DNA of 64,000 bases from an uncultured Candidatus Saccharibacteria bacterium (GCA_964609135.1 CAZSQQ010000002.1:13349-77348); one strand, 5' to 3'; positions 39,595 to 55,469 are shown, counted from the first letter of the stretch. Made by a program: numbers and translations. Notes: a model not told the origin generated them from the letters alone.

Positions 39595-41391
39595 ATGTCA
39601 TTCCCGATAAAGCGATTAAAGAAGCAGCAATCTTTTTTTCTTATAGCAACACTCTTGGCGTTGGGTTCAGTTGTCGTTCTTTACAAATATAGTTTGATCT
39701 CGCCAACCGACGAAGAGGGTGATAATAATCGGGCAGAGCTAATACGTTCTGTCTATATCGCCTCCGAAAACGATGGTTGGGCGGTCGGCAACTTGGGAAG
39801 AATTTACAGACTGGGCGAGAATGGGTGGAATTCATTTGAAAGTCCGACTAAACAAAGGCTTCACTCGGTTTCATTCGCCTCCAAAAACGATGGTTGGGCG
39901 GTGGGTTATAGGGGAACTATTATCCATTGGGACGGTGTAGCTTGGCAATTGGCCAAAAACCCTACAGACGATTGGTTAAGGTCGGTGCAAATGCTCTCGC
40001 CCGACGACGGCTGGGCCGTCGGTCACAATAGCATTCTCCACTATGACGGTAAGGAGTGGAAAGAAATAGAAAGGCCTGCCGGAGTTGATAAGCCGCTCAA
40101 AATAGTGAGTATGCTTTCCAAAGACTACGGTTGGATAGCGGGCGATGACGGCACCATCCTTCGCTTTGACGGAAAAAATTGGGAGAAGGTATCCTCCCCC
40201 ACCAACTTGAGACTTCGAGCCATATACACTCTTTCCAAAACCAATGCCTGGATAACGGGAGAAAACGGTCTAATACTGCACTGGGACGGAAATATTTGGC
40301 AAAAAGTAAAAAGCCCGGTGGATAATTGGCTAAGATCGGTCTATTTCACTTCCGAAAACGACGGTTGGGCGGTGGGCCACAACGGACACATCATCCGCTT
40401 TGACGGGCAAACTTGGCAAAAGGTTGAATCGCCCACCGACACCCGGCTCGACCAAATTGTGATGACTGGAAAAGGTGAGGGCTGGATCGTAGGCAACGGC
40501 AACCTAATCCTGAAATGGGACGGGGAGAATTGGCGAACCGAACAATCCCTGCCGATTTTCATGCTTAAACAAATTTTTGCCGTCTCTGACGAAGACGTCT
40601 GGGCGGTCGGCAATAACGGCACGATAACTCACTTTGACGGTAAGTTTTGGTCAAATACCGCGCCCACAACTAATAATTTAAATTCTCTGTATTTATCTTC
40701 GCAGAAATATGGGTGGGCGGTGGGAGACGATGGCGTGATTCTCTCCTTTGACGGCGAGAAGTGGACAGTTGAGAAAAGTCCCACCTCGGAAAGATTGGAA
40801 TACGTTTATGCCACCTCAAAGGATGACGCTTGGGCGGTTGGGTTTAACGGCACAATCATTCATTGGAATGGACAAAGCTGGCAAAGCGTAAAAAGTCCCA
40901 CCCAAGAAAGATTGCGGAATGTTTTTATACTCAATCCCCAATATGGGTACGCGGTCGGCGAACACGCTACCATCCTTTTCTGGAACGGGAAAACTTGGGA
41001 ACCCCAAAACCCGCCTCAAAGCGTTATCGGTTCCGCTCCGACGCTGCACTCCGTTTCCATATTGTCAGAACGGGATGCCTGGATAACGGGGTACGGAGTG
41101 CTTTTAAGATGGGGTGGAAAAGAATGGCGTGAGGTCGGAGACAACCACAAAAGACTCCACTCGATCTACATGCTCTCCCAAAACGACGGCTGGATTGTCG
41201 GCAACTTTGGCACTATTTACTATTGGGATGGAAAGGAGTGGACTCTTATGAAAAATGCCGCCCAGGAGAAACAACAAAGACTTCATTCAGTTTCTTTTTC
41301 CTCTCCTTCGAATGGCTGGGCGCTGGACTTCACGACCGGAACTATCTGGCGCTACAACGGAAAAACATGGGCAGAAAACAATCTGCCTTAA
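39595..41391 (+). CDS. secreted beta-propeller-like repeat protein (14 tandem ~42-aa repeats, Ycf48/BNR-like)
   Basis: Signal anchor then 14 repeats of pattern S..DGWAVG..G.I.HWDG..W. Confidence 0.55.
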   Translation: MSFPIKRLKKQQSFFLIATLLALGSVVVLYKYSLISPTDEEGDNNRAELIRSVYIASENDGWAVGNLGRIYRLGENGWNSFESPTKQRLHSVSFASKNDGWAVGYRGTIIHWDGVAWQLAKNPTDDWLRSVQMLSPDDGWAVGHNSILHYDGKEWKEIERPAGVDKPLKIVSMLSKDYGWIAGDDGTILRFDGKNWEKVSSPTNLRLRAIYTLSKTNAWITGENGLILHWDGNIWQKVKSPVDNWLRSVYFTSENDGWAVGHNGHIIRFDGQTWQKVESPTDTRLDQIVMTGKGEGWIVGNGNLILKWDGENWRTEQSLPIFMLKQIFAVSDEDVWAVGNNGTITHFDGKFWSNTAPTTNNLNSLYLSSQKYGWAVGDDGVILSFDGEKWTVEKSPTSERLEYVYATSKDDAWAVGFNGTIIHWNGQSWQSVKSPTQERLRNVFILNPQYGYAVGEHATILFWNGKTWEPQNPPQSVIGSAPTLHSVSILSERDAWITGYGVLLRWGGKEWREVGDNHKRLHSIYMLSQNDGWIVGNFGTIYYWDGKEWTLMKNAAQEKQQRLHSVSFSSPSNGWALDFTTGTIWRYNGKTWAENNLP

Positions 41392-42856
41392 ACCGATTGT
41401 TCAATCTTTCCTTTAAGTCGCTTACAACATCAGCCCTCTCGTCTAAAACATTATGAAGTTCCTCCTTGTCTTGACTAATATCATATAATTCTAAGCTTTC
41501 TTTAGACGTACCATCTTTCTCAAAAACCGTTTCTTTGATTAGCTTCCAGTTTTTATCTCTTATCACCTCAACTCTGGTTTTCTTTTCGTAATATTGATTA
41601 TTTGCGCCGGGAGTAAAATTAGAACCTGCAAATATATATTCGTTAACTTCCTTATCTTGAAATATAAGCGGGCTTAGACTTTTACCCTCGATAGGAAGCC
41701 GATTTTGAATTCCCAGTAGGTCAAGAAGTGTCGGCAAAATATCAATTTGTTCCGCCAAGCCGTCAATTCTCTTGGGAGAAATTTGTGAACTCTTTATAAG
41801 AAGAGGAATATGTAAAACGTCATCATAAAAAGTTCCCCGAAGCGGACCGCCTCGCATAAACCTGCCGTATTTGCCGAACATATCCCCGTGTTCCGAAGCA
41901 AATATGATTATCGTCTTATCGTAAATGCCCAAAGACTTTAGTTCGTTCAGCAGCTTGCCTATTTCTTTGTCGGCAGAGGTAATGCTTTCGTCGTAAAGCG
42001 CAATGAGATGTTTTACGTCTTCCTCTCCCAACAGCACAAATTTATCGGTGCCCGTCTTGGAAAAATAAACCTTGTAATACGTCTGGCCATCTATAATTTG
42101 GGGACCAGTTCTGTCAAACGTCCATAAACAATCGGAAAAATCGACGGCGCCTTTATAATTTTTATCGTAAGTCAGTCCCCCATTTTGAGAAAATGGGCAA
42201 TGAGCGTCAAATCCCTGGACCTGGACAAAAAATTTCTCTCGGCTATTCTCTTTCAACCAATCAATGGCTTTGGGCACGGTGCAAGTCACCTCTCCATACT
42301 GGCTGGGACCGCCGATTCTCGGGCCCGGTTGCCTGGGATAATTCTGTCCTTGTCCCCTAGTGCACTCTTCATAATGATCAAAACGGTTGGTCAGTCCGAA
42401 TTCGGTATTGTAATCAAAACCTCCGGTAAATGCGGCGGTTGTGTAACCGTTATCCTTTAAAACATCAATTAGGGTAGGTGTGTATTTCGATAGCGTGCTC
42501 CCATCGTACCTATTCATCACTCCGTGCTGAAATGGGAAAAGGGATGTGTAGATAGAAATGATCTCCGGGAGCGTCCAACTGGAATGTCCAAAGGCATTTT
42601 GGAATACCAAAGATTCTTTGGATAGCTTATCAACGTTGGGCGTAGTGGGTCTCGAGTAGCCGTTCCCTGACATATGGTCGTATCGAAGATTCGTCATAGT
42701 AATAAGCACAACGTTGCAGTCCTTACAGATATTGTCAGTAGGAACTGCCGTCACCTCCCGCTGGGCAGACACAGAAATTTCTTGTCTATAATTGTTGACT
42801 ATAAGGTAACCGCCTATAGCTAATACTGATAAAAATCCCAAAACAACTTTCTTCAT
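41342..42856 (-). CDS. sulfatase-like hydrolase/transferase (alkaline-phosphatase superfamily), secreted
   Basis: Signal peptide; sulfatase N-terminal-domain blocks including SLFPFQHG; lacks the CxPxR formylglycine motif, so transferase/phosphatase-like rather than true arylsulfatase. Confidence 0.65.
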   Translation of the reverse strand: MKKVVLGFLSVLAIGGYLIVNNYRQEISVSAQREVTAVPTDNICKDCNVVLITMTNLRYDHMSGNGYSRPTTPNVDKLSKESLVFQNAFGHSSWTLPEIISIYTSLFPFQHGVMNRYDGSTLSKYTPTLIDVLKDNGYTTAAFTGGFDYNTEFGLTNRFDHYEECTRGQGQNYPRQPGPRIGGPSQYGEVTCTVPKAIDWLKENSREKFFVQVQGFDAHCPFSQNGGLTYDKNYKGAVDFSDCLWTFDRTGPQIIDGQTYYKVYFSKTGTDKFVLLGEEDVKHLIALYDESITSADKEIGKLLNELKSLGIYDKTIIIFASEHGDMFGKYGRFMRGGPLRGTFYDDVLHIPLLIKSSQISPKRIDGLAEQIDILPTLLDLLGIQNRLPIEGKSLSPLIFQDKEVNEYIFAGSNFTPGANNQYYEKKTRVEVIRDKNWKLIKETVFEKDGTSKESLELYDISQDKEELHNVLDERADVVSDLKERLNNRFKADCFLPMFFRCSAR

Positions 42857-43404
42857 AAATTACAGCTGAAAGATTTGATAATTTTATCTATCTGGGCGTC
42901 ATCCGCGCCAAAAAGGTTTACTTCAAAAATTCCTTTCCCTCCGCAGTCGAAAAGGCCATACCTCGAATGGTACTTTATCAAATCTTCGGAACAAATCCCG
43001 TAGTTCATCCTCTCTCCGGCAAACAAGCTATAAATAACTCCACTTTCAACCTTCTCTTCTTTGGGCTTGAATTCCTCATCACACTTAACGATGTTAGTTA
43101 TAAATTCGGGATAAGGAGAGGTGGTGGGCTCGAAAAGAAGTTTTAAAATTTCTTTTTTGTCGTTAATAAACTTGCCGCTGTTTTCCGCTACAGATTTTAC
43201 TATTCTTGCTTTTGAATCGTCGGAAACAAGTTCGAGGGAGTCGCCGTTTTCACCGCCCACGTTATAGCTTTGCCAACTTGGCAAATTAACGCTAACTCCC
43301 CAGACGAACAATTTAATACTGGGGAAATTTAAAAAGGAAATTGCGCTAATAAGAAGAAGTAAAAGGGCTGTGAGCAAAAACTTCTTTGAGTTCGTAAAAA
43401 CCAC
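42853..43404 (-). CDS. hypothetical secreted protein (GTG start)
   Basis: 183 aa with N-terminal signal anchor. Confidence 0.4.
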   Translation of the reverse strand: MVFTNSKKFLLTALLLLLISAISFLNFPSIKLFVWGVSVNLPSWQSYNVGGENGDSLELVSDDSKARIVKSVAENSGKFINDKKEILKLLFEPTTSPYPEFITNIVKCDEEFKPKEEKVESGVIYSLFAGERMNYGICSEDLIKYHSRYGLFDCGGKGIFEVNLFGADDAQIDKIIKSFSCNL

Positions 43405-43480
43405 CTTCTAATTTTATCACAGGTTCAAATCTTTCAAGGTTTTCGGGTAATAAACGGTAAGATTTCTCAAAAAGAAAACA

Positions 43481-43496
43481 GTTTCATTAATGAAAC
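43481..43496. repeat. 16-bp perfect palindrome GTTTCATTAATGAAAC in divergent intergenic region
   Basis: Directly upstream of a TGTATAAAT -10-like box facing the truncated MopE-like copy. Confidence 0.7.
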
Positions 43497-43521
43497 CGAG
43501 GGCAGAGTGTATAAATTATAA

Positions 43522-44607
43522 ATAGGGAATCACTATAGAAGCACAGAAGGGGAAAAAGTTGCGGACAATGATACTTATACGACAGGTGCCAGCCAGCAGG
43601 TTCTCTCGGGGGCTACCCTGCCCGCGGGGTACAGGGCGGCTGTAAATGGCGCTGATTGCAACGATACCAACAACACCCTCTGGCAAAATCTGACTGGCTA
43701 TGCCGATGCCGATCTTGATACCTTTACGACCGGAGCAGGGGTGCAAGTCTGTTCTGGAGCGGCTCTGCCTTCAGGGTATAGAGCGGCTGTGAATGGGGCT
43801 GATTGCAATGACGCCAATGGCCTTATCTGGAGAAACAGGTATCGGGATGCCGACGCTGATACGTTTGGCGCGGGCGCTCTGGTCTGTGTTGGCAATGACG
43901 TTGGTTATGTTGATAACGCCAGTGATTGCAACGACGCCGATGTGAACAAGTGGCAGAATCTGACGGGCTATACCGATGCCGACAGTGACACCTTTACCAC
44001 AGGAGGAGGCGTGACAGTCTGTTCAGGAGCCTCTTTGCCTTCAGGATACAGATCAGCCGTGAATGGGGCTGATTGCAATGACGGGAACGCTTCCGTCTGG
44101 CAAAATCTTACCGGCTATACCGATTCCGATGCCGATGGTTATGGTTCATCAGGTCCCGGCAGTGTGTGTTCCGGAGCCAGTCTTCCGGGAGGCTATGTAT
44201 CTAACAACAGTGATTGTTATGATTCAAATGCTAATGCCCGTCCCGGACAGGGTAGCTTTTTTACTACCAATAGGGGTGACGGCAGTTTTGATTATGATTG
44301 TAATAGTGCCATTGCATATGACCAGCCGTACTATGACGACGTAGCCAATTTTACAATATCTCACTTTGATACTGGGCCATATGGCACTGTTTGCGTTACT
44401 GGCAGTACGGACAATTATAATCAAGTGACCAGTGCCTCTTTTTGCGGTACTTCGCATGAGAACTCCGTAGTTGCAGGTGGAACTCCATGTATTAGCTGCT
44501 CTACATCGAATTATCCTAATACTACCTGCTCAGCACCGGCTGGCGTATGCGGATACACTCAATTTTTCGGCTGTATACACAACTTCATGACCATAAGCTG
44601 TCATTAA
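43522..44607 (+). pseudogene. 5'-truncated MopE-type Cys-rich repeat protein (silent cassette / partial paralog of 44702..46189)
   Basis: Open frame from 43522 with no ATG/GTG/TTG before GTG 43741; no signal peptide; repeats of CSGASLPSGY..GADCND.N...WQNLTGYTDAD.DTYTTG; diverged C-terminal ~100 aa. Confidence 0.45.
43561..43700. repeat. IR-left: 140 bp perfectly identical in inverted orientation to 45567..45706
   Basis: Base-by-base comparison of both copies; identity begins and ends abruptly. Confidence 0.85.
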
Positions 44608-44630
44608 TGTTATTAGACGCAACTCAAATA

Positions 44631-44676
44631 TACTAAAGGTTTGCCCAGTGGTTAACCACTGGGCAAACCTTTAGTA
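44631..44676. repeat. 46-bp perfect palindrome (21-bp arms around TTAA; GTTAAC core) between the convergent MopE-like genes
   Basis: TACTAAAGGTTTGCCCAGTGG-TTAA-CCACTGGGCAAACCTTTAGTA. Confidence 0.85.
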
Positions 44677-44701
44677 TAAAAGAATAAGTCGTTGTACTGT
44701 C

Positions 44702-46189
44702 TCAGTGGCAAATCCAGGTCATCGTGGAGAGGACGTACCATCGCGTGATACTGCACCCTGGGTCGGTGTAGCCGCTGGGATTGCAAACACTCCTGGTTGA
44801 CCCGCACTCAGCGTTAGTGGCGGTCGTTCTTACCGTACCTAAGCTACATGACGGTGAGGTCTGGCCACATACACTATAGGCATCCCTTGCATAACAGGGA
44901 CCATTAGGTGCCGCGTCGCATGGTGGTCCGTTAGGATCAAGCTCGTTAACACCGCTACAATTGTAGTCAAAACTGCCATCGCCTCTGTTAGAACTATAAT
45001 AGGCGGTCTGTCCGGGCTTGGCATTGGCATTACTATCATAGCAATCGGCGCCTGAACCGGCGGTAGAAAGATAGGGCGAGGGTAGTGATGCGCCCGAACA
45101 AACAGTGTAGGGTCCAGTAGTATAAGCATCACCATCGGCATCGAGATAGCCGGTCAGGTTTTGCCAGACAGTGGCGTTCGCGTCATTGCAATCTGGGCCG
45201 TTTGCATTGGCCGTGTAACCTGATGGCAAAGAAGCCCCAGAGCAAATGGATTGGGCGGTTGAATTCGCTCTAACGCCATCGTTATCAGCATCAGTATAGC
45301 CGGTAAGGTTCTGCCAAACGGAGGCGTTCCCGTCATTGCAGTCAGTCGAATTATCAACATAACCGGCGTCATTACCTACACAGGTGGCTGAAGATACTCC
45401 ATAACCATCTCCATCTGCATCGCGGTATCTGTTTCTCCAGATAGCGCCATTGGCATCATTGCAATCGGTGGCGGTAGCTGAAGCCCTATACCCGGACGGC
45501 AAGGAGGCACCTGAACAAACTGACTGGGCACTACCAATGGTATAGGTATCACCGTCAGCATCCGTGTAGCCAGTCAGATTTTGCCAGAGGGTGTTGTTGG
45601 TATCGTTGCAATCAGCGCCATTTACAGCCGCCCTGTACCCCGCGGGCAGGGTAGCCCCCGAGAGAACCTGCTGGCTGGCACCTGTCGTATAAGTATCATT
45701 GTCCGCGTCCGCGTAGCCGGTAAGATATTGCCATTTGGTGGAATCGGTTGCGGCGGCGTCAGCTGATGTTGTAGAGGTCATAACATTTCTCCTTCTGCCA
45801 GATGTAGGAGCTGTGTCTTGAGCGTATTGAGTAAGAGAATCCGCATATCCATCGCCGTCGGTATCAACCATCCAAAGATTGGTTTGCTTAAGCTGACCGG
45901 TAGAATTTATGGCAATGGAACCGGTGACGGTAATGGTTTGACCGGAATTCCAGGCAACAGTCTGGCCGGCATTGATTGTCAAAGTTTGACTCAAGGCTAC
46001 AGTCAAGTCGCCGTTATCAACTCCGTCAACGGTGTTCGGGAAGGTGCAGCTCGAACTAATTGTGAGGGCGCCACCGGCGGAGGGAGAACAGTTTACGGCG
46101 AGCGCCGCCCCGGGGGCTAAAAAGTACAAAGCCGCCGCTATGGGCAGACCAAGTTTTATAAAAGATATTTTATTAATTCCTGATTTCAT
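44702..46189 (-). CDS. secreted MopE-type Cys-rich putative metal-binding repeat protein (full-length, signal peptide)
   Basis: Start at Met28 (46189) gives signal peptide MKSGINKISFIKLGLPIAAALYFLAPGAALA; about 6 repeats of DADGDGY/DxDxDxY + DCND.N pattern (MopE/PF11617-like). Confidence 0.6.
   Translation of the reverse strand: MKSGINKISFIKLGLPIAAALYFLAPGAALAVNCSPSAGGALTISSSCTFPNTVDGVDNGDLTVALSQTLTINAGQTVAWNSGQTITVTGSIAINSTGQLKQTNLWMVDTDGDGYADSLTQYAQDTAPTSGRRRNVMTSTTSADAAATDSTKWQYLTGYADADNDTYTTGASQQVLSGATLPAGYRAAVNGADCNDTNNTLWQNLTGYTDADGDTYTIGSAQSVCSGASLPSGYRASATATDCNDANGAIWRNRYRDADGDGYGVSSATCVGNDAGYVDNSTDCNDGNASVWQNLTGYTDADNDGVRANSTAQSICSGASLPSGYTANANGPDCNDANATVWQNLTGYLDADGDAYTTGPYTVCSGASLPSPYLSTAGSGADCYDSNANAKPGQTAYYSSNRGDGSFDYNCSGVNELDPNGPPCDAAPNGPCYARDAYSVCGQTSPSCSLGTVRTTATNAECGSTRSVCNPSGYTDPGCSITRWYVLSTMTWICH
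45567..45706. repeat. IR-right: inverted copy of 43561..43700 (140/140 identical)
   Basis: See IR-left. Confidence 0.85.
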
Positions 46190-46213
46190 AGTTCGATGTG
46201 ACTCACCATAAAT
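46190..46213 (-). repeat. conserved junction element copy F (..AATTTATGGTGAGTCACATCGAACT-ATG)
   Basis: Abuts start codon of MopE-like gene; mini-ORF MVSHIEL* with TGA overlapping ATG. Confidence 0.6.
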
Positions 46214-46221
46214 TTGCTTTC

Positions 46222-46716
46222 TTATTTTACAACAATAGTCCCGATAGCGACTCCGGCGGCATATTTCCAAGTACCTTTCTTAGTGATTCTCATTATTTTA
46301 AACTCGCCCGGAGATATCAAACCGGCGTTCAACTCTTCATTAGATCCGTCGCCTGATGGCGGATCGGAATATACTCTAATTAGCTGACTCGATTTGTTAA
46401 TAATTTTAATCCACTGACCGCTCTTAACGTTATCTGATTTAATCTCTTCGGGTTTAAAAGTAAAACTGACATTTTGCGGCGATAGCGTTGCCCCGTCATA
46501 GGCTATGGTTGCTACTTTGTTGTAGCCGGTATCGGGCGGTTCTTTGGGAGCCGCAGGATTGCTTCCAATAACCTCTCCAGCTACAGGCGATTTAGAATTA
46601 ATATACGGCGAAACAAATTTGAATAAGCTGTCTTTATAGAAATAGAGAAGTACCACAAGCAACAACGCTAAAACCAAGGCAATTTTCGAAATCATCTTTT
46701 TGGTTCTAATTTTCAT
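46222..46716 (-). CDS. secreted hypothetical protein with C-terminal cupredoxin-like beta-sandwich (related to 17215..18619 pair)
   Basis: Signal anchor; C-terminus ...GEFKIMRITKKGTWKYAAGVAIGTIVVK resembles ...GSWKYHDHLNPSKAGTVVVE. Confidence 0.45.
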   Translation of the reverse strand: MKIRTKKMISKIALVLALLLVVLLYFYKDSLFKFVSPYINSKSPVAGEVIGSNPAAPKEPPDTGYNKVATIAYDGATLSPQNVSFTFKPEEIKSDNVKSGQWIKIINKSSQLIRVYSDPPSGDGSNEELNAGLISPGEFKIMRITKKGTWKYAAGVAIGTIVVK

Positions 46717-46740
46717 GGTTCGACGCGGCTCACCATAAAT
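46717..46740 (-). repeat. conserved junction element copy E (TAA-TTTATGGTGAGCCGCGTCGAACC-ATG)
   Basis: Fills the entire 23-nt gap between two genes; mini-ORF MVSRVEP*. Confidence 0.6.
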
Positions 46741-47315
46741 TATCTAAAATTCAAATCTATATGAGAGCTGTAATTAGCCGACTTAGCCTCAAGTATGGCC
46801 GTATATATTTTATCGTGGGTGTCGTTTATTTTCCAGCTTCCGCCCCAAACTCCGTCTTCCCGTGCGCCAGATAGGAGTTTCAGATTATGGCTAACGGTTT
46901 TGGCGTCTCCTTGTGTCTTAAGGACGACTGATTCTATCGCTTCCGGAGCTTTTACCTTAACCGTAACTCTCTGCTCCTTGCCAACACTGCTGTGGAGCGG
47001 ATCAAAGACCGCTTCGGTAAAAGTCGGTATTTCTCTGGTTTGAATATTGTAGGTTTCTTTGGTATTGAAAGGCAGTTTTAAGTTAGAATCAGAGCTTTTT
47101 GTAGTGGAAGGGAGGGGCTGATTCTTGCCTCCATCAATGGTTCGATACAACTCACCATAAGAAGAAAATATGAACGACGCAAGAAACAGCAAGCCAAGGA
47201 CCGTCGCCAACGTCTTAGCGCTGTTATCTAGACTTAAGCCTTTATTTAGTCGGGACAATAAACCCTTGGACATTTTCATCGCCAATCGCGCTATTGCTCC
47301 AACTTTGATAATCAA
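46740..47315 (-). CDS. hypothetical membrane-anchored or secreted protein
   Basis: 191-aa ORF (start may be Met13/Met15); contains junction element copy G inside its coding region just after the TM. Confidence 0.4.
   Translation of the reverse strand: MIIKVGAIARLAMKMSKGLLSRLNKGLSLDNSAKTLATVLGLLFLASFIFSSYGELYRTIDGGKNQPLPSTTKSSDSNLKLPFNTKETYNIQTREIPTFTEAVFDPLHSSVGKEQRVTVKVKAPEAIESVVLKTQGDAKTVSHNLKLLSGAREDGVWGGSWKINDTHDKIYTAILEAKSANYSSHIDLNFR
47139..47160 (-). repeat. conserved junction element copy G (TTATGGTGAGTTGTATCGAACC), intragenic
   Basis: Encodes SSYGELYRTIDGG in ORF 46740..47315. Confidence 0.55.
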
Positions 47316-48234
47316 AACGAGGAGCCGTTAAGCGGTAGGAAACTTCGCCGACTTTGTCGCCATAGACAGTTAACTTACCGGAGTGAGCTTCTTTCTTATA
47401 CCAAGCCCTGCCGTCAAACCCGGGAGAAACTATAACTGATAAATTCTGCCAATTTTTGCCAAAGTCGGTAATCTGATAGAAAAGCCATAAGTCCGAGCCT
47501 TTCTCGGCATTCTTGAAATCAAGAACCGCCTCGGCAATTTTCAATTTTGAATTTTCAATTTTCAATTTAAGAACGCCTGTCGTTTCTTCTTTTACGCCAG
47601 TCATGCTGGGTAGATAAGTGGCGAATCTCTCGCCACCGATGGTATAAATCGGATCAACTGTGCCGGCATCGAGTTTTCCAGAGCCGCCACCGACTACCAC
47701 TGTGCCGCCGCTTGGGGCAATAAGCACATTGCCTTTGGTCGCGTTAGAAGTTGAGTCCAGTGTCAGAGTGCCGCTCACGGTGCTGTTTCCGAAAAGCGTG
47801 AAACCGGCGGCGTTGATGTTGCTCGCCCAAGGTGTCTGCGGTGAAGTTGCGGCGGCCGCGCTTGTCCAAGCCGTGCCATTCGAGGTTAAAACATTGCCGC
47901 TTGCTCCCGGAGCTACGGCCGTAAAGGCGGAAGCGGCATTACCAATCAAAGCTCCCGATAAGGTGGTGGCGCCGGTACCACCTTGGGCAACAGTCAAAGC
48001 GGTAGTAAGTCCGGTAATGGAGGTAATATCCGAGTTCGCGCCCGAGGCGGCCGCACCCAAATTGGTTCTCGCGCCGGAAGCGGTCGTCCCGGCGGTCCCG
48101 CCGTTCGCTATGGGAACCGGCCCGCCGCCCGTGGGCGGAGCAGCCGAGGGATTGGTCCAGGCCCTAACCACTCCGAAGAGAGCCATAAAGCCCACGAGAA
48201 CTAAAACAAAATAAAGCGGGAGGTTCTTAGTCAT
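47242..48234 (-). CDS. secreted Gly/Thr/Ala-rich protein with tail-fibre-like GGTGATT...ARTNLGAAASG repeats
   Basis: Signal anchor; low-complexity N-terminal half, beta-rich C-terminal half. Confidence 0.45.
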   Translation of the reverse strand: MTKNLPLYFVLVLVGFMALFGVVRAWTNPSAAPPTGGGPVPIANGGTAGTTASGARTNLGAAASGANSDITSITGLTTALTVAQGGTGATTLSGALIGNAASAFTAVAPGASGNVLTSNGTAWTSAAAATSPQTPWASNINAAGFTLFGNSTVSGTLTLDSTSNATKGNVLIAPSGGTVVVGGGSGKLDAGTVDPIYTIGGERFATYLPSMTGVKEETTGVLKLKIENSKLKIAEAVLDFKNAEKGSDLWLFYQITDFGKNWQNLSVIVSPGFDGRAWYKKEAHSGKLTVYGDKVGEVSYRLTAPRFDYQSWSNSAIGDENVQGFIVPTK

Positions 48235-48314
48235 TTTATCTTTATCTCATTATACATTATTCGTTTTCTACTTACTAACAAGCTATCAAGCTAACTAAAG
48301 GGCTAACAAGCTCG

Positions 48315-49703
48315 CTACGGGCTCCAGTTAACTATGACATCGTCAACTACCGGAAGTCCGCTGGAAGAGGAAGCAACCTGCATCACCTTATAACTCACCG
48401 TCCCACAGGTAGAGGTGTTGGAGCAGTTGAAGCTTATCCAGCCCAAAGCGTCATTCCAGCCCCAGCCGGAGAAGTCCCCGGTCGTGGTATTCAACAACAC
48501 CCTGTAATCCGACGTAGCGCAGGTATTGCCGATAACGCTATTGTTGCAATTGAAGCTTATCCAGCCAACGGCATCGTTCCAGCCCCAGCCGGCAAGATTG
48601 CCGGCGCCGTCATTGGTAACGTTGAAGTTGCTGGTACTGCAGATATTGCCATTGGGGGAAGTGGCGCAGTCAAAGGCTATGTAAGAACCGGCGAAGCTCT
48701 CCCAGACGGCATAACCCTGAATGAGACTGGGGGTTATGTTAACGGTCCCCGGCGAGAAGAAGTTCATCCAGCCGAAGGAATCGTTCCAGGCCCATTTGTT
48801 TACGGAGTCGATGCCGGTCGAGGGAAGAGTATAGATGCCATCTAAGAAAACCTTATATCTATAGTAGCGCTTATTGTTGTGATAAATGCCCGCGATCTGA
48901 ATGGGGCTATTGGGACCGCTCGGGCTGTAATAAGTTGCCGATGATCCGTCCGACCCCAAAAAGGCGCCGTCACCGGCAGTCTTACTGCCTCCCCAGCCGA
49001 CACCCGCAGCACAGCCTGGAGCGTCGGTTGCGCCATTGGAACAATTGGCAGTTGCCAGTTGAAACTTAACCGCTGAATCGGTGGGCAGTGAACCCTGCCA
49101 GAGAAAGCTGTTAAAAGAAACTCCGTTAGAGTAGCCGGTGTCAAAAGTGCTGGAGATTAAGTTCCCGGCAACAGGCCCGGAGATATTTTGGCTCACCTTA
49201 TAACTCACCGTCCCACAGGTAGAGGTGTTGGAGCAGTTGAAGCTTATCCAGCCCAAAGCGTCATTCCAGCCCCAGCCGGAGAAGTCCCCGGTCGTGGTAT
49301 TCAACAACACCCTGTAATCCGACGTAGCGCAGGTATTGCCGATAACGCTATTGTTGCAATTGAAGCTTATCCAGCCAACGGCATCGTTCCAGCCCCAGCC
49401 GGCAAGATTGCCGGCGCCGTCATTGGTAACGTTGAAGTTGCTGGTACTGCAGATATTGCCATTGGGGGAAGTGGCGCAGTCAAAGGCTATGTAAGAACCG
49501 GCGAAGCTCTCCCAGACGGCATAACCCTGAATGAGACTGGGGGTTATGTTAACGGTCCCCGGCGAGAAGAAGTTCATCCAGCCGAAGGAATCGTTCCAGG
49601 CCCATTTGTTGGTGGAATTAATGTTGGTGGCGGCAGAAGCAATTTCCGGAAAACCAAATGACAAAACCACAATGACCAATAAGATTGAATTAAAAATTTT
49701 CAT
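48315..49703 (-). CDS. secreted Trp/Cys-rich repeat protein (W.WND..GW..F modules) carrying a duplicated 139-aa block
   Basis: Signal peptide MKIFNSILLVIVVLSFGFPEIASA; repeats GWGWNDAVGWISFNC... Confidence 0.55.
   Translation of the reverse strand: MKIFNSILLVIVVLSFGFPEIASAATNINSTNKWAWNDSFGWMNFFSPGTVNITPSLIQGYAVWESFAGSYIAFDCATSPNGNICSTSNFNVTNDGAGNLAGWGWNDAVGWISFNCNNSVIGNTCATSDYRVLLNTTTGDFSGWGWNDALGWISFNCSNTSTCGTVSYKVSQNISGPVAGNLISSTFDTGYSNGVSFNSFLWQGSLPTDSAVKFQLATANCSNGATDAPGCAAGVGWGGSKTAGDGAFLGSDGSSATYYSPSGPNSPIQIAGIYHNNKRYYRYKVFLDGIYTLPSTGIDSVNKWAWNDSFGWMNFFSPGTVNITPSLIQGYAVWESFAGSYIAFDCATSPNGNICSTSNFNVTNDGAGNLAGWGWNDAVGWISFNCNNSVIGNTCATSDYRVLLNTTTGDFSGWGWNDALGWISFNCSNTSTCGTVSYKVMQVASSSSGLPVVDDVIVNWSP
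48383..48800. repeat. 418-bp direct repeat, copy 1 (100% identical to 49193..49610)
   Basis: Line-by-line comparison, offset 810 bp. Confidence 0.9.
49193..49610. repeat. 418-bp direct repeat, copy 2
   Basis: See copy 1. Confidence 0.9.
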
Positions 49704-49726
49704 AGTTCAATGCGATTCACTACAAG
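49704..49726 (-). repeat. conserved junction element copy B (TGA-CTTGTAGTGAATCGCATTGAACT-ATG)
   Basis: Fills the 23-nt gap; frame VVNRIEL* with TGA overlapping ATG. Confidence 0.55.
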
Positions 49727-51049
49727 TCATGGCACTTGAATTTGGATAGACCCGGGGGTGGTTGACGCATCGATCTTGGTCTGCGAAGAATAACCGGTGT
49801 TAGGACTTGTAACCGGCCCTTCAGCGCCAGACCCTCCATTCCAGTTGCTGAATTGGGTAATTTCGTTTTTGGAGCGAGTCAAAAATTCAGAAGCTTGGAT
49901 TTGCGGAGACCCCCCGAACTGACTCCACGAAACCGTAGCCGTGACTTTCTGCGTTGAGGGATCTTCCGTGCCGCCAGTCGCTACGATTGATCCGCCGGAA
50001 TCACGATTAACGTTTTCAACCGACAAATAGCGGGTGAAGGGACGGGAATTATAGGTTTGAGTGACCTCGGCCGCCGAGACCGCCCGCTTGTAAATTTTAA
50101 CGTCGTCTATCCTGTGACTCGCGGACGTTCCATCGGCGTCCCCCATCCGAACAGATCCGGCAGTATAAAGCGTTTGGCTCGCGAGAGCCGAGGTTGTCGT
50201 ACATTGAACTCCGTCCAAATAAACCTTAACAGTTGTGCCGTCATAGGTTCCAAGCAAGTGATGCCAGGCATTTAAAGTAAACGACGGGGCGCAACCCGAG
50301 GCGTTAAATTGGCTCACTCCATTAAAAACTCCGAAGAGGGCGTTGCCGCCGGAATCGGCAAATAAATTCCAGCCGCCGGCGGCGGAGAAATTATTGGCCA
50401 CCAGATCATCAAAGTTAATATGACCGGTCAAATAAACCCAGGCCGAAACAGTTATGGCTGTGGTTGGGAACCCGCTCGGGGGCGCAATCGTGACATACTG
50501 GCCGGTCCCGCTAAGAGTTAGGCAGTCGCTCACGAAACAGGAGACTGTTCTCACGGGACTGCCAGTCAAAGTCCCGTTATTGCCAACACCGGAGGAATCA
50601 TAGGCATTGACCCCTGAAGCCTCATCCAGTTTCCATTGACCAACCAAGCCGTCCCTAATCTCATTTTCAGGAACCCCCTCTTTACCGGTTACGACGGTGA
50701 AATCGGCGCCCGTTGCATTCACAAGATAATAATTGGTAGAAGGGCCCTTGCTAGCCACATTATAAAGATTGGTCCAACCGGCCTGGGAAAAAGACCGCGC
50801 GTTATCAATGAGCTCTTGACTTAACAGATTGGCGGTTTGCACGGTGCGATTTTGGGCGTTGATGCGAAGCGTCAAAACTATCGCTCCCGCCGCCGAGCCG
50901 ATAATCAAGGTTCCAATGGCCACAGCCACGAGCACCTCAACCATTGATTGACCCCTTCGATGTGACTCACTCTTCGACTCTCGCTCAGAGTGCCCTGAGC
51001 TTGTCGAATGGGCAGGGCGGGCCCTCCTCTTGTTAAAACTGGTAGGCAT
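49727..51049 (-). CDS. pilin-like protein with LamG/concanavalin-like (LamG_3) domain; start ambiguous (51049 or 50944)
   Basis: ...RRG-QSMVEVLVAVAIGTLIIG hydrophobic helix with Glu+5, then LVGQWKLDEASGVNAYDSSGVGNNGTL LamG_3 signature. Confidence 0.55.
   Translation of the reverse strand: MPTSFNKRRARPAHSTSSGHSERESKSESHRRGQSMVEVLVAVAIGTLIIGSAAGAIVLTLRINAQNRTVQTANLLSQELIDNARSFSQAGWTNLYNVASKGPSTNYYLVNATGADFTVVTGKEGVPENEIRDGLVGQWKLDEASGVNAYDSSGVGNNGTLTGSPVRTVSCFVSDCLTLSGTGQYVTIAPPSGFPTTAITVSAWVYLTGHINFDDLVANNFSAAGGWNLFADSGGNALFGVFNGVSQFNASGCAPSFTLNAWHHLLGTYDGTTVKVYLDGVQCTTTSALASQTLYTAGSVRMGDADGTSASHRIDDVKIYKRAVSAAEVTQTYNSRPFTRYLSVENVNRDSGGSIVATGGTEDPSTQKVTATVSWSQFGGSPQIQASEFLTRSKNEITQFSNWNGGSGAEGPVTSPNTGYSSQTKIDASTTPGSIQIQVP
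50956..50972 (-). repeat. conserved junction element copy H (GTGAGTCACATCGAAGG), 10 nt upstream of internal ATG-GTT-GAG (MVEV...)
   Basis: 14/16 identical to copy F. Confidence 0.5.
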
Positions 51050-51078
51050 TTCCTATTTAAGTATAAATCACTTGTTGT

Positions 51079-51102
51079 GGTTCGACATAGCTCACCGTAA
51101 AT
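51079..51102 (-). repeat. conserved junction element copy A (TTTACGGTGAGCTATGTCGAACC) overlapping stop of 51092..52219
   Basis: Same orientation as other copies. Confidence 0.55.
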
Positions 51103-52219
51103 TGAAATTATAAAGAGTGGTGACCTCTGAAGCCGAGAGAGCCCGGCTATAGACACGAACTTCATCAATCGAACCGCTTAGAAATCCGGAAGCGAGGTCG
51201 CTTTTCACGGCCATAGTAAAGGGCGCGGCATTCACGTTAACCGAGGTTATGGTTGTGGCCGCGGAATTCTGAAGAGACCCGTCAATATAAATCCTTGCCG
51301 CCACCCCAGACTCAAAAACGCCAACCAAATGATGGAAAGTGCCGTCAGCTAAATTCGATGTGCCGGATACACTCACATTGGTTGTGCCATTAGAAACATA
51401 GAATTGTCCAAATCCAGAAGTTGCCGCAATATTCAGATTGTAAGCGATGGAGGCGTCTAGATCAGTATTGCGCTTGGCAATAATGTAAGCTAAAGCTGTC
51501 GAGGAAGTTTTAATCCAAGCGCTAAGAGAAAAGGAGCTCCCAACATTTAAACTTGAACCATTGCCGGCAGTGACATAATTAGAAGCGCCGTTAAAACTTA
51601 AACAGTTGCCGCTCTTGCAAGAGACTCCCGCAACCCATGTTGGCGCGGCGGCCGAAAAAGTTCCGCTATTGCCGTTCCCGGAATTGTCATTAGCCGTCGT
51701 GCCGGTATTTTCATCTAAATCCCAGTAGCCGACCAGGTCTTTTATGAGGTCGTAGTCAATCTTGCCGGACGTATTCACGGACACGAGACCAATCTGATTC
51801 GATAAAACCGATGAACTTATAACAATATTTGTACTTATATTCGGAATTCCGGTGGCCTTATCAAAAATCACGTCCCTGGAAGTATTGTTAACGGGATCGG
51901 TGAAATCAAGCTGGGGGCTAAGTGAAATTTTGGCGAGCACGGTGCCCGCCGCATAACTTGCGCCGCTCCAAATTTCGTAATAATCGTTGTCCGCTCCGGT
52001 CGGATTCCAGAATCTGATTCCCCACTGCAAACCGTTTTCTTGCGCCCTTGACCTCTGGGCGGTTTGCCTCACGTCGCTTAGAACCCTGAAAGTCATGCTG
52101 TTTAAAACCTGCTTTCCGCGAATGCCAAAATATCCCGGGGCCACAACGGCCGCGAGGAATGCCGTAACGGCCAAGACTATCAAGACTTCAACCAAAGTGA
52201 ACCCCTTCCTAGATGACAT
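51092..52219 (-). CDS. type IV pilin fused to LamG-like domain (class III signal peptide MSSRKG|FTLVEVL)
   Basis: Canonical prepilin cleavage motif G|FTLxE; LVGYWDLDENTGTTANDNSGNGNSGTF LamG_3 signature. Confidence 0.7.
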   Translation of the reverse strand: MSSRKGFTLVEVLIVLAVTAFLAAVVAPGYFGIRGKQVLNSMTFRVLSDVRQTAQRSRAQENGLQWGIRFWNPTGADNDYYEIWSGASYAAGTVLAKISLSPQLDFTDPVNNTSRDVIFDKATGIPNISTNIVISSSVLSNQIGLVSVNTSGKIDYDLIKDLVGYWDLDENTGTTANDNSGNGNSGTFSAAAPTWVAGVSCKSGNCLSFNGASNYVTAGNGSSLNVGSSFSLSAWIKTSSTALAYIIAKRNTDLDASIAYNLNIAATSGFGQFYVSNGTTNVSVSGTSNLADGTFHHLVGVFESGVAARIYIDGSLQNSAATTITSVNVNAAPFTMAVKSDLASGFLSGSIDEVRVYSRALSASEVTTLYNFNLR

Positions 52220-52280
52220 GCCGATTATATATAAATTTTTGAACCTTTGGGTGATAAAAATTTATCCATAGAATCGAGCA

Positions 52281-52384
52281 CCCCGCACCAGTTTACGCAA
52301 AATCGACCATTTTCATAGGGGGAAAGCGAATCTTGAGTTAGGTGACTTGGATGGGTCATGGTGTTCATAAAAACTGGTGCGGGG
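52281..52384 (-). promoter_or_regulatory. structured 5' leader of pilin gene: 14-bp long-range stem enclosing 76 nt
   Basis: Stem CCCCGCACCAGTTT (52281-52294) pairs with AAACTGGTGCGGGG (52371-52384); additional 8-bp hairpin at 52398-52417. Confidence 0.35.
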
Positions 52385-52426
52385 TAAGGTTTTGTTTCTC
52401 CGACGTAAGCGTCGGAGACAAAGCCC

Positions 52427-53638
52427 TTAAACCTTTCCCACCAGTTGATAGACGGGAATGATTATGGCGAGCGCGATCACTCCCACAATCATGCCGATAA
52501 TGAGGAGGAGAACCGGTTCCAAGAACGATATTAAAATCTTGAGAGACGAATCAATTTCAGACTCATAGAACTCGGACAGGGTCTCGAGGATGCTCTCCAA
52601 GTGACCGGATTTTTCGGAAATGGCGATTAGATTCACAACCACTCTCGGAAAATATGTCTCCCGGTGAAAAGCTTCACCGATTGTCAAACCCTTGGCGATG
52701 CCCTCCCTGGAAATTCTAATCAGAGTCGCTTCCATGTCCGGATTGCCGACGGTTTTGGCGGTTATCTCCATCGCTTCCAGGATCGGCATCCCCGACCGCA
52801 AAAGCGAAGAGAGGGTCGAGGCAAATCTCTGCAAGGCGATTCTATAAATAATTTCGCTAACCACCGGCAATCTCACCAAAGTTCTTCTTAAAATCCTTTG
52901 CCCAAGAAAATTTTTGAAAAAGAAAAACCATGAGCCAAAAACGGCGGAGACGAGAAACAACAATACCGCGAAAGCGTTATGGCCCAAAAAGAGCCCGATA
53001 GAAAAAACAATCTTGGAAAAAAGCGGCGGCTCAATGCCGGCCGAAAGGAAGGTTTCGGCTATCCGAGGCAACGCGAAGGTGATCATAAGAAACAGGATCA
53101 CGAGTGACAGGAAAACAAGAACTACCGGATAAATAAGAGCGCTCTTAATTTTGTTCCTTAACTGTTGTTCTTTCTCCAAGCCCCGACTCAAGTCTTCAAA
53201 AATCTGATCCAGATTGCCCGAGACCTCTCCGGCACGAATGAGATTGGTAAAAACCGCCGAAAAGTACTTGGGGTATTTCTCGAAAGTGGTATAGAAAGGC
53301 TGTCCCCGGCTTAAGGCGTCCTTGATTTCCAAGAGAAGAGTTTTAACCGACGGTTTCTCAAAGTCGGCGATTAAAATATCTATGGCGCTGAATAGATCGG
53401 TCCCGACTCTAAGCATCAAAGCCAGGTACTTGGTTAAGAATACCTTGTCGGCCGTGGTAATGGATTCTGAAAAGACGCCCTTAACCCCCCTGGTTTCAAC
53501 CGCCCCCAAAGATTTTAGGGAAACCGGACGAAGACCCTGCTTCCCCATCCACTCCAAGACTTCGCTTGGGGCTCCGGCTTCCAAGTCGCCTTCGACGGCG
53601 TTATTTTTTGCGTCGGTGGCGATATAATGAAATCTCAT
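52427..53638 (-). CDS. pilC: type IV pilus inner-membrane platform protein PilC (GspF family)
   Basis: Two T2SS-F repeats, 3 TM, about 400 aa. Confidence 0.8.
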   Translation of the reverse strand: MRFHYIATDAKNNAVEGDLEAGAPSEVLEWMGKQGLRPVSLKSLGAVETRGVKGVFSESITTADKVFLTKYLALMLRVGTDLFSAIDILIADFEKPSVKTLLLEIKDALSRGQPFYTTFEKYPKYFSAVFTNLIRAGEVSGNLDQIFEDLSRGLEKEQQLRNKIKSALIYPVVLVFLSLVILFLMITFALPRIAETFLSAGIEPPLFSKIVFSIGLFLGHNAFAVLLFLVSAVFGSWFFFFKNFLGQRILRRTLVRLPVVSEIIYRIALQRFASTLSSLLRSGMPILEAMEITAKTVGNPDMEATLIRISREGIAKGLTIGEAFHRETYFPRVVVNLIAISEKSGHLESILETLSEFYESEIDSSLKILISFLEPVLLLIIGMIVGVIALAIIIPVYQLVGKV

Positions 53639-53639
53639 T

Positions 53640-55409: not shown

Positions 55410-55429
55410 CGCTACAGTTAACTGTAGCG
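55410..55429. repeat. 20-bp perfect palindrome CGCTACAGTTAACTGTAGCG downstream of pilin gene (terminator-like; GTTAAC core)
   Basis: Perfect dyad in the pilin/pilB intergenic region. Confidence 0.6.
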
Positions 55430-55469
55430 GTAGGGAGTCGGTATGAAAGAGATAAAATGCTTAAAAATT

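What the first reader, a model, noticed from the sequence alone, without database searches (positions are those of the whole stretch)
44631..44676. Perfect 46-bp palindrome (21-bp arms) near the centre of the putative invertible segment
TACTAAAGGTTTGCCCAGTGG-TTAA-CCACTGGGCAAACCTTTAGTA lies in the 94-bp gap between the two convergent MopE-like genes. Its centre is within about 20 bp of the midpoint of the segment bounded by the 140-bp inverted repeats. A 21-bp perfect stem is much longer than typical intrinsic terminators (7-12 bp) and neither side has a convincing U tract. It could be a bidirectional transcription stop that works in either orientation, a cruciform or recombinase-binding site, or a replication/recombination hotspot. 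The same GTTAAC core occurs in another perfect palindrome at 55410..55429, and a TTAA-centred one at 43481..43496.
Basis: seen in the sequence. Interest (0 to 1): 0.5.

Follow-up and report, generated by a model that had tools for sequence, protein, structure and literature searches.

The report
Shared hairpin terminator between mirrored genes
The long perfect palindrome is real. It is most likely an ordinary two-way transcription stop signal that sits exactly on the mirror axis of an old inverted gene duplication, so it would serve whichever of the two gene endings is in use.

Summary
The palindrome is real and slightly longer than reported: a perfect 50-bp palindrome at 44629-44678 (25-nt arms, or a 23-bp stem with a TTAA loop). 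About 6e-11 would be expected by chance per window.

It is the exact symmetry axis of a ~2.15-kb inverted duplication (43561-45706). One arm is the 3' two-thirds of a full-length secreted protein gene (44702-46189, minus strand), the last gene of a type IV pilus-like operon in a Candidatus Colwellbacteria MAG. The other arm is a promoterless, start-less copy on the plus strand.

Between the copies, synonymous sites are saturated and the 21/23-nt spacers cannot be aligned. Yet the 25+25-nt palindrome and the 140-bp outer repeats are 100% identical, so both are actively maintained.

The palindrome reads as a 14-bp GC-rich stem, a TTAA loop and a TTTAGTAT tail on both strands. That is the anatomy of a bidirectional intrinsic terminator. 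Perfect gene-end palindromes with 10-22-nt arms are common in this window and in other CPR loci.

In-silico inversion gives an in-frame 509-aa alternative protein followed 21 nt later by the same hairpin.

The shared GTTAAC core is coincidence, and the arm has no other copy anywhere searched. No recombinase gene was found. Neither inversion nor termination could be tested here.

The hairpin is an ordinary kind of element in a moderately interesting setting.

The parts
44629..44678 (.). Perfect 50-bp palindrome (25-nt arms). As RNA on either strand it forms a 23-bp stem with a UUAA loop.
   Evidence: (I11). Chance expectation about 6e-11.
44638..44669 (.). Inner GC-rich core, GGTTTGCCCAGTGG-TTAA-CCACTGGGCAAACC (14-bp stem, 9 G:C pairs). 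It is flanked by TATACTAAA upstream and TTTAGTATA downstream on both strands, which is the layout of a bidirectional intrinsic terminator.
   Evidence: TTTAGTAT tail with 5 T in 8 on both strands. DNA fold of the core, -16.6 kcal/mol.
44702..46189 (-). Full-length gene (495 aa, NCBI tag HYW37_01125). It has a Sec-type signal peptide, a confident beta-solenoid-like N-terminal domain, Cys/Asp-rich repeats and a variable Cys-rich C-terminus. It is the last gene of the minus-strand pilus-like operon. Its stop codon lies 23 nt before the palindrome.
   Evidence: Operon context.
43561..44607 (+). Promoterless, 5'-truncated paralogous cassette (348 codons, open throughout). It has no start codon before GTG 43741, no signal peptide, and a stop codon at 43519-43521 just upstream. 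Its own stop codon lies 21 nt before the palindrome.
   Evidence: pN 0.21-0.27 against saturated pS.
43561..43727 (+). Left outer inverted repeat. The first 140 bp (43561-43700) are identical to the right copy, and identity is 95% over 167 bp. It is in the same reading frame as the right copy.
   Evidence: (I1).
45540..45706 (-). Right outer inverted repeat, inside the expressed gene and starting at codon 162. The perfect part is 45567-45706.
   Evidence: (I1). Logan contigs from three other sequencing runs stop exactly 30 nt into it.
44608..44628 (+). 21-nt spacer between the plus-strand stop codon and the palindrome. It cannot be aligned with its mirror counterpart.
44679..44701 (-). 23-nt spacer between the minus-strand stop codon and the palindrome.
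43479..43498 (-). Canonical minus-strand terminator-like hairpin (8-bp stem, TTAA-centred, followed by TTTTCTTTTT). It lies just outside the left repeat. It is probably a back-up or ancestral operon terminator that insulates the next gene (42853-43404).

Best explanation
The palindrome encodes an RNA hairpin that forms and stabilises transcript 3' ends in both directions; it is a bidirectional intrinsic-terminator-type element. It lies on the mirror axis of an ancient inverted duplication of the 3' two-thirds of a secreted-protein gene at the end of a type IV pilus-like operon.

Shown by the sequence:
- It sits 23 nt after the stop codon of the expressed gene and 21 nt after the stop codon of the silent convergent cassette.
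- It is a perfect Watson-Crick palindrome.
- It maps onto itself if the segment between the 140-bp repeats is inverted.

Inferred:
- RNA polymerase leaving the operon on the minus strand pauses and releases at the 14-bp GC-rich stem plus U-rich tail. This prevents antisense transcription of the silent cassette.
- If recombination between the 140-bp repeats swaps the cassettes, the same element terminates the alternative 509-aa gene.
- Function on both strands forbids G-U wobble pairs, because a G-U pair on one strand is an A-C mismatch on the other. That would explain why the arms stay perfectly complementary.
- The element probably began as the ancestral gene's terminator hairpin, and the duplication folded back at its loop.
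For: Anatomy:
- Stem, 4-nt loop and T-rich tail. The scan calls a terminator on the minus strand. With the inner 14-bp stem, both strands carry TTTAGTAT, 5 T in 8.
- Very stable fold on both strands.

Position:
- 21 and 23 nt after the two stop codons, in a 94-bp gap between convergent ORFs.

House style:
- All eight perfect hairpins in the window with stems of 10 nt or more were placed against the ORF list. Seven lie in or next to a gene's 3' end. The eighth (19766-19795) lies inside ORF 19675-20346.
- Other CPR loci carry perfect gene-end palindromes with arms of 14-22 nt, 0-70 nt after a stop codon, without any inverted gene pair.

Constraint:
- Between the two arms pS is about 0.76-0.8 (saturated), and the last ~100 codons are about 43% identical at the nucleotide level.
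- The flanking spacers cannot be aligned, yet 25/25 positions of the palindrome match.

Symmetry:
- The arm-to-arm alignment is colinear right up to the axis.
- In-silico inversion gives an in-frame 509-aa ORF followed 21 nt later by the identical hairpin.

Literature:
- Inverted repeats of 8 bp or more just after stop codons in E. coli are mostly intrinsic terminators (PMC6060812).
- Hairpin-encoding bidirectional terminators between convergent genes are prevalent (bioRxiv 10.1101/2022.10.23.513370).
Against: - No transcript data exist. Nothing is known experimentally about termination signals in Colwellbacteria.
- On the plus strand the fully zipped stem is followed by AAAGAATA, with no U tract. 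Termination there requires that only the inner stem acts, or that the hairpin works by pausing or collision.
- A 23-bp perfect stem is longer than needed and is the longest seen here. The next longest in about 0.7 Mb of related loci are 22 and 21 nt.
- There are no orthologous loci to test for compensatory changes.
Confidence: 0.62

Rival explanations
1. Passive relic. The palindrome is simply the junction left by the fold-back (template-switch) event that created the inverted duplication. It has no function of its own.
For: - It is exactly the axis of the duplication, and the arm alignment runs colinear into it.
- The distances to the two stop codons are nearly equal, 21 and 23 nt.
Against: - The duplication is old. 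Synonymous sites are saturated and the adjoining spacers are randomised.
- An unconstrained junction should have decayed like its flanks. At about 45% flank identity, the chance of 25/25 identical positions is about 1e-9.
Confidence: 0.1
2. RNA-processing or stability element. The 23-bp perfect duplex, about two helical turns, is a substrate for RNase III (my own knowledge of RNase III substrate requirements). It would set the half-life of the operon's last cistron rather than, or in addition to, terminating transcription.
For: - The stem length of 23 bp exceeds what terminators need.
- A separate canonical terminator lies further downstream on the same strand at 43479-43498.
Against: - Similar long gene-end palindromes in other CPR loci carry obvious A-tract/T-tract terminator features.
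- No rnc gene or cleavage data are available here.
- This reading is compatible with the terminator reading rather than exclusive of it.
Confidence: 0.08
3. Recombinogenic DNA element. The palindrome extrudes as a hairpin or cruciform during replication or under supercoiling. It would be a preferred break or fork-stall site that stimulates homologous exchange (inversion or gene conversion) between the flanking inverted cassettes, without a dedicated recombinase.
For: - The DNA hairpin is stable at -25.3 kcal/mol with no spacer.
- It lies midway between 140-bp perfect repeats that must be kept identical by recombination.
- No recombinase gene was found in the 64-kb window or about 10 kb beyond its low-coordinate end.
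Against: - Comparably long palindromes occur at gene ends in other CPR loci that have no inverted repeats, so length alone needs no such role.
- There is no evidence that inversion occurs at all.
- 50 bp is below the palindrome length that is strongly unstable in E. coli (my own knowledge).
Confidence: 0.07
4. Protein-binding site for a dimeric regulator, an invertase accessory factor, a restriction-modification enzyme (GTTAAC) or a protelomerase-type resolvase.
For: - Perfect dyad symmetry.
- A length of 50 bp resembles protelomerase target sites (my own knowledge).
- The centre is GTTAAC.
Against: - There is no second copy of the arm in the window, in 97 fetched loci, in JGI metagenome contigs or in viral contigs.
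- GTTAAC is neither enriched nor avoided, 16 observed against 18 expected.
- Pfam found no recombinase, R-M or telomere-resolvase domain in the window.
- Crossover sites of an inversion would lie at the segment ends, not at its centre.
- The flanks are diverged paralogous genes, not replicated telomere arms.
Confidence: 0.04
5. Assembly artefact: a chimeric fold-back join in a metagenome assembly.
For: - The source is a MAG.
- The orientation of the segment between the 140-bp exact repeats cannot be resolved from contigs alone.
Against: - The two arms are strongly diverged paralogues, not the same sequence folded back.
- A 50-bp palindrome with unique flanks is spanned by single reads.
- The NCBI contig is 100% identical to the window across this region, although the two differ at the 48.4-49.5 kb tandem repeat. 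They therefore appear to be separate assemblies.
Confidence: 0.02

Closest known systems
Bidirectional intrinsic (Rho-independent) terminators between convergent genes
   Same: - GC-rich stem, short loop and T-rich tract, mirrored by an A-rich tract so that the whole unit is a palindrome.
- Located a few tens of nt after both stop codons.
- A single element serves both strands.
   Different: - The paired region is unusually long and flawless: 23 bp, compared with about 7-14 bp for typical intrinsic-terminator stems.
- The U tract is short and interrupted (UUUAGUAU).
- One of the two 'genes' it serves is a silent cassette, so convergent transcription is probably absent in the present orientation.
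- Activity is untested.
Gene-altering programmed inversions: shufflon-like or 'partial intergenic' invertons such as the phage Mu G segment, the R64 pilV shufflon and hsdS invertons (PMC9881135, PMC7672463, PMC10028968)
   Same: For the surrounding locus:
- One expressed gene plus an inverted, promoterless, 5'-truncated paralogue placed tail-to-tail.
- Inverted repeats lie in frame near the 5' side of the variable part.
- Inversion would swap the C-terminal specificity region.
- The gene sits at the end of a type IV pilus operon, as pilV does in R64 (my own knowledge).
   Different: - No recombinase gene is nearby.
- The repeats are 140 bp of perfect coding sequence rather than short core sites, which points to homologous recombination.
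- Neither orientation switching nor population heterogeneity was observed.
- None of the invertons in the papers read here is from Patescibacteria (a term search in PMC9881135 gave 0 occurrences).
Long gene-end perfect palindromes in other CPR/Patescibacteria genomes
   Same: - Perfect arms of 17-22 nt.
- A/T-rich outer parts and GC-rich inner parts.
- Where a preceding ORF could be assigned (L006, L061 7757-7797, L070, L053), they lie 0-70 nt after its stop codon.
   Different: - Those are not on the axis of an inverted gene duplication.
- They have unrelated sequences and centres.
Protelomerase target sites (telRL of phage N15 and relatives)
   Same: A perfect palindrome of about 50 bp.
   Different: - No protelomerase gene.
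- Not at a replicon end.
- The flanks are diverged coding paralogues.
- The resemblance is in length only.

Membership tests
Intrinsic terminator (bidirectional type) | Stable GC-containing stem-loop with a 3-8 nt loop | tested here: met
   A 23-bp stem with a 4-nt loop, -39.4 kcal/mol as RNA on either strand. The inner 14-bp stem has 9 G:C pairs.
Intrinsic terminator (bidirectional type) | U-rich tract immediately 3' of the stem on the minus (operon) strand | tested here: met
   The scan reports a terminator-like site at 44676-44631 (-) with tail TATTTGAGTT. The inner-stem tail is TTTAGTAT.
Intrinsic terminator (bidirectional type) | U-rich tract immediately 3' of the stem on the plus strand | tested here: inconclusive
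   The full stem is followed by AAAGAATA (1 T in 8), so the criterion is not met. The inner 14-bp stem is followed by TTTAGTAT (5 T in 8), so it is met only under that reading.
Intrinsic terminator (bidirectional type) | Located shortly downstream of the stop codon(s), between convergent ORFs | tested here: met
   21 nt and 23 nt after the two stop codons.
Intrinsic terminator (bidirectional type) | Transcript 3' ends map at the element | not testable with these tools
   No transcriptome is available for this uncultivated organism.
Gene-altering programmed inversion (shufflon-like inverton) | Inverted repeats in two CDSs on opposite strands, tail-to-tail, with the repeats near the 5' side | tested here: met
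   140-bp perfect repeats at 43561-43700 and 45567-45706. The orientation rule is described in PMC9881135.
Gene-altering programmed inversion (shufflon-like inverton) | Inversion yields an intact in-frame alternative gene, and the silent copy lacks its own start and promoter | tested here: met
   - In-silico inversion gives a 509-aa ORF.
- There is a stop at 43519-43521, no start codon before 43741, and no plus-strand promoter-like site upstream.
- The silent copy is under purifying selection.
Gene-altering programmed inversion (shufflon-like inverton) | Site-specific recombinase encoded nearby | tested here: not met
   There is no recombinase, integrase or resolvase domain among the ~53 ORFs of 150 aa or more that were scanned from the window. 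None appears in the genes about 10 kb beyond its low-coordinate end either. The rest of the genome was not examined.
Gene-altering programmed inversion (shufflon-like inverton) | Both orientations present in reads or in related genomes | not testable with these tools
   - Only one orientation is seen, in the NCBI contig and in the window.
- Logan contigs break 30 nt into the repeat.
- No close relatives exist in the databases searched.
Repeated palindromic element (REP/MITE-like) | Multiple copies in the genome | tested here: not met
   The arm occurs only in this palindrome, even allowing up to 3 mismatches in the window. It is absent from JGI metagenome contigs, viral contigs and 94 other fetched loci. 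The remaining contigs of the MAG were not searchable.
Protelomerase target site | Associated telomere-resolvase gene, with flanks that mirror each other perfectly or lie at a replicon end | tested here: not met
   No such domain was found in the window. The flanks diverge immediately outside the 50 bp.
Pfam PF11617 Cu-binding_MopE (the 'MopE-like' label for the flanking genes) | Score at or above the Pfam gathering threshold (27 bits) | tested here: not met
   12.5 and 14.2 bits, E = 0.18 and 0.054. Some distant homologues do carry precomputed PF11617 hits.

The most novel reading that the evidence does not exclude
The palindrome is a working part of a recombinase-independent cassette switch. 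It would be a hairpin- or cruciform-prone fragile site placed on the axis of two inverted cassettes. Breakage or fork stalling there would trigger RecA-type exchange between the 140-bp repeats. This would let a Patescibacteria cell alternate the C-terminal (presumably ligand-binding) part of a protein encoded at the end of its pilus-like operon. The same sequence would also terminate transcription in either state.
Probability: 0.06. Interest if true: 0.7.

Novelty: new member of a known kind. Interest (0 to 1): 0.27.

Why it matters
The palindrome alone matters little. It extends the picture that Patescibacteria mark gene ends with long, perfect, A/T-flanked hairpins, which is useful for annotating transcription units in a group with no transcript maps.

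The setting is more interesting:
- A silent, selectively maintained C-terminal cassette lies mirror-wise behind the last gene of a type IV pilus-like operon.
- The cassette has 140-bp perfect in-frame repeats and a shared symmetric terminator.
- This is the architecture of a shufflon-like antigen or specificity switch.
- Type IV pili mediate host binding in cultivated Patescibacteria (PMC11623550), so a switchable secreted partner protein could bear on host range.

That claim needs read-level evidence and properly belongs to the neighbouring 'invertible segment' finding.

Tried and rejected
- Repeat-family idea. The 21-nt arm was searched in the window with up to 3 mismatches, in JGI metagenome contigs, in IMG/VR viral contigs and in all fetched loci. 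Only the palindrome itself was found.
- Shared GTTAAC/TTAA core as a motif. Rejected: 16 sites against 18 expected, 14 of them with arms of only 3-4 nt (little or nothing beyond the 6-bp site), and other CPR palindromes have different centres.
- Known RNA family. Rfam gave only sub-threshold microRNA-type hairpin matches, 21-26 bits against cut-offs of 65-200.
- Conservation of the architecture. Five homologue loci and 80 genome loci were examined. Tandem paralogues occur (L002, L004), but none shows a convergent pair with near-identical repeats and an axial palindrome. Comparative or covariation tests were therefore impossible.
- Recombinase search. Pfam was run on about 53 ORFs of the window and on neighbouring genes beyond one end. 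None was found. The look-up beyond the other end failed.
- Evidence for the flipped orientation. The NCBI contig and the window agree. Short-read Logan contigs from five other runs all stop before the repeat can be crossed; three end exactly 30 nt into it and two end upstream of it. This is uninformative on orientation.
- Protein function. An AlphaFold2 model from a 15-sequence alignment was confident only for residues ~32-140, which look like a beta-solenoid. Foldseek against the PDB gave nothing with E < 1.
- Promoter reading. A 9/12 sigma-70-like match on the minus strand inside the palindrome is within chance expectation, 8 found against 5.9 expected in the region.

Full report
**Observation**

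The flagged sequence is present, and it is larger than reported. It is a perfect 50-bp palindrome at 44629-44678 with 25-nt arms and no spacer. Read as RNA, this is a 23-bp stem with a TTAA loop.

- It is the longest perfect hairpin in the window; the next have stems of 14, 13 and 10 nt.
- The chance expectation for arms of 25 nt or more is about 6e-11 per 64 kb.
- The fold is extreme relative to shuffles: RNA -39.4 kcal/mol with z = -10.8, and DNA -25.3 kcal/mol with z = -11.2.

**Source and setting**

Exact protein look-ups place the window in a metagenome-assembled genome of Candidatus Colwellbacteria (Patescibacteria/CPR). The assembly is GCA_016187165.1 and the genes are HYW37_01125 and HYW37_01120.

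The minus strand from about 56.1 kb down to 44.7 kb is a type IV pilus-like operon. It encodes:
- a PilB-type ATPase;
- a PilC-type platform protein;
- three proteins with the prepilin N-methylation motif;
- several proteins with no family match;
- as the last gene, a 495-aa secreted protein at 44702-46189.

The label 'MopE-like' rests on a sub-threshold motif match, PF11617 at 12-14 bits against a cut-off of 27.

**The palindrome is the axis of an inverted duplication**

I aligned 43480-44653 with the reverse complement of 44654-45830. The two sides are colinear from the outer repeats right into the palindrome.

- The minus-strand arm is the 3' two-thirds of the expressed gene.
- The plus-strand arm (43561-44607) is a copy that starts abruptly at the repeat boundary.
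- A stop codon lies just upstream of that copy (43519-43521).
- It has no start codon before GTG 43741, no signal peptide and no promoter-like site upstream.
- It is nevertheless open for 348 codons.

**Both the outer repeats and the palindrome are actively maintained**

Codon-level comparison of the two arms gave:

| Region | Result |
|---|---|
| Middle part, synonymous differences per site | 0.76-0.80 (saturated) |
| Middle part, non-synonymous differences per site | 0.21-0.27 |
| First 56 codons, nucleotide identity | 95% |
| Last ~100 codons, nucleotide identity | ~43% |

- The duplication is therefore old.
- Both copies have stayed under protein-level selection.
- The outer 140 bp are being homogenised.
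- The 21-nt and 23-nt spacers between the stop codons and the palindrome cannot be aligned. Against that background, 25/25 matching positions in the palindrome mean that its complementarity is actively maintained.

**What the palindrome looks like functionally**

On either strand it reads: A-rich tract (TATACTAAA), a 14-bp GC-rich stem (GGTTTGCCCAGTGG), a TTAA loop, the return stem, and a T-rich tract (TTTAGTATA).

- The consensus scan reports it as a terminator on the minus (operon) strand.
- Applying the same T-count rule to the inner stem, both strands pass with 5 T in 8.
That pairing is inherent in bidirectional terminators.
- Function on both strands also explains perfection. A G-U pair tolerated on one transcript is an A-C mismatch on the other. 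This step is inference.

**House style**

Perfect hairpins in this window with stems of 10 nt or more lie almost only at gene ends:
- 336-356, after a 93-aa ORF;
- 6299-6321;
- 21950-21976, beside the 3' end of the ribonucleotide reductase gene (21984-24383);
- 28082-28112, after hisS;
- 33153-33174;
- 55410-55429, after a pilin-like gene.

The exception is 19766-19795, which lies inside ORF 19675-20346.

Among 80 loci that encode relatives of the protein, other CPR genomes carry perfect palindromes with 14-22-nt arms. Where a preceding ORF could be assigned, they lie 0-70 nt after its stop codon. Most have obvious A/T-tract flanks. Their sequences and centres are unrelated, and no inverted gene pair surrounds them.

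So the element here is the long end of an ordinary class. Published work agrees:
- Inverted repeats just after stop codons in E. coli are mostly intrinsic terminators (PMC6060812).
- Hairpin-encoding bidirectional terminators between convergent genes are common (bioRxiv 10.1101/2022.10.23.513370).

**Relation to the putative invertible segment**

- The two 140-bp repeats are in the same reading frame.
- Flipping 43701-45566 in silico produces an intact 509-aa protein, made of the constant 161 residues plus the plus-strand cassette. It is followed 21 nt later by the identical hairpin.
- The tail-to-tail layout with repeats near the 5' side matches the rule found for gene-altering programmed inversions (PMC9881135).
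- A promoterless secondary copy matches hsdS invertons (PMC7672463).

Points that weaken or leave open the inversion idea:
- No recombinase domain was found among the ORFs scanned from the 64-kb window, or in the genes about 10 kb beyond its low-coordinate end.
- Only one orientation is seen, in the NCBI contig and in the window.
- Logan short-read contigs from five other runs are 100% identical to the window. All end before the right repeat can be crossed. Three of them stop exactly 30 nt (k-1) into it, which shows only that the repeat is a branch point in the assembly graph.
- Inversion is therefore plausible but unproven. With 140-bp perfect repeats it would more likely run through homologous recombination.
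- A second, canonical minus-strand terminator (43479-43498, followed by TTTTCTTTTT) lies just outside the left repeat. It would stop any read-through before the next gene.

**Alternatives examined**

- *Repeated element or protein-binding site.* Unlikely. The arm has no other copy in the window (up to 3 mismatches), in JGI metagenome contigs, in viral contigs or in the other fetched loci.
- *GTTAAC core as a meaningful motif.* It occurs 16 times against 18 expected, and 14 of those sites have arms of only 3-4 nt, i.e. little or nothing beyond the 6-bp site itself. The shared core with 55410-55429 is coincidence.
- *Known RNA family.* Rfam gives only sub-threshold hairpin look-alikes.
- *Assembly fold-back artefact.* Excluded by the strong divergence of the arms. 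Only the orientation of the segment is assembly-ambiguous.
- *Passive relic of the duplication event.* Contradicted by the decay of its immediate flanks.
- *RNase III processing site, or a recombinogenic hairpin/cruciform.* Neither can be excluded, and neither has positive evidence.

**Side work**

- The closest relatives of the protein share at most about 50% identity over the repeats. They occur singly or as tandem paralogues, never in this mirrored layout.
- An AlphaFold2 model is confident only for the constant N-terminal beta-solenoid-like domain, and it has no significant PDB match.

**Verdict**

- The best-supported reading is a symmetric, bidirectional terminator-type hairpin on the axis of an old inverted duplication. 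It is shared by an expressed gene and its silent alternative ending.
- It is a new example of a known kind of element.
- Whatever novelty exists lies in the surrounding candidate cassette switch in a Patescibacteria pilus-like operon. Testing that needs read-level data.

Noticed in passing
window 48383-48800 and 49193-49610 (inside ORF 48315-49703, minus strand): A 418-nt stretch is repeated exactly 810 nt downstream, forming a tandem duplication inside a 462-aa ORF of the pilus-like operon. The NCBI contig JACPKH010000011.1 ends and differs in exactly this region, so the copy number is uncertain in the assemblies.
   Followed up: partly
window 46167-46214, 46694-46741, 47116-47163, 49695-49730 (minus strand): A conserved ~30-nt motif, TTATGGTGAG(T/C)C(A/G)C(A/G)TCGAAC(T/C)ATGAAA, lies directly in front of and includes the start codons of consecutive operon genes. 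It contains a 7-codon mini-ORF (MVSxxEx*) whose TGA overlaps the next ATG. This may be a translational-coupling or RBS cassette.
   Followed up: partly
window 44702-56087 (minus strand): The flagged locus is the 3' end of a type IV pilus-like operon. The operon holds a PilB-type ATPase (53640-55349), a PilC-type protein (52427-53638) and N-methyl-motif pseudopilins, two of them with Laminin_G_3 domains (49727-51049, 51092-52219).
   Followed up: yes
window 43479-43498 (minus strand): A canonical terminator-like hairpin with a TTTTCTTTTT tail lies just outside the left inverted repeat. It may be the ancestral operon terminator, or a back-up that insulates gene 42853-43404.
   Followed up: partly
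window 41342-41391: The convergent genes 39595-41391 (+, YCF48/BNR-like beta-propeller with 117-nt periodic repeats) and 41342-42856 (-, sulfatase) overlap by 50 nt at their 3' ends with no hairpin. Not every convergent pair in this genome has a terminator palindrome.
   Followed up: no
L092, L093, L095 (Logan contigs of runs SRR12113424, SRR12113384, SRR12113430), ending at window 45677: Three independent short-read assemblies are 100% identical to the window and all stop exactly 30 nt (k-1) into the right 140-bp repeat. The repeat is a graph branch point in several samples, so the same population is present in at least six runs that could be mined for both orientations.
   Followed up: partly
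L006 7759-7802; L061 260-302 and 7757-7797; L070 8719-8754; L053 9926-9962: Other CPR loci carry perfect palindromes with 17-22-nt arms. Most lie just after a stop codon, which suggests that long perfect hairpins are a general gene-end signal in Patescibacteria.
   Followed up: partly
window 1791-1879 (minus strand): A predicted tRNA-Ser (GGA) overlaps the 5' end of ORF 747-1856, so that ORF's true start is probably further downstream. The gene called on the NCBI contig is 345 aa.
   Followed up: no
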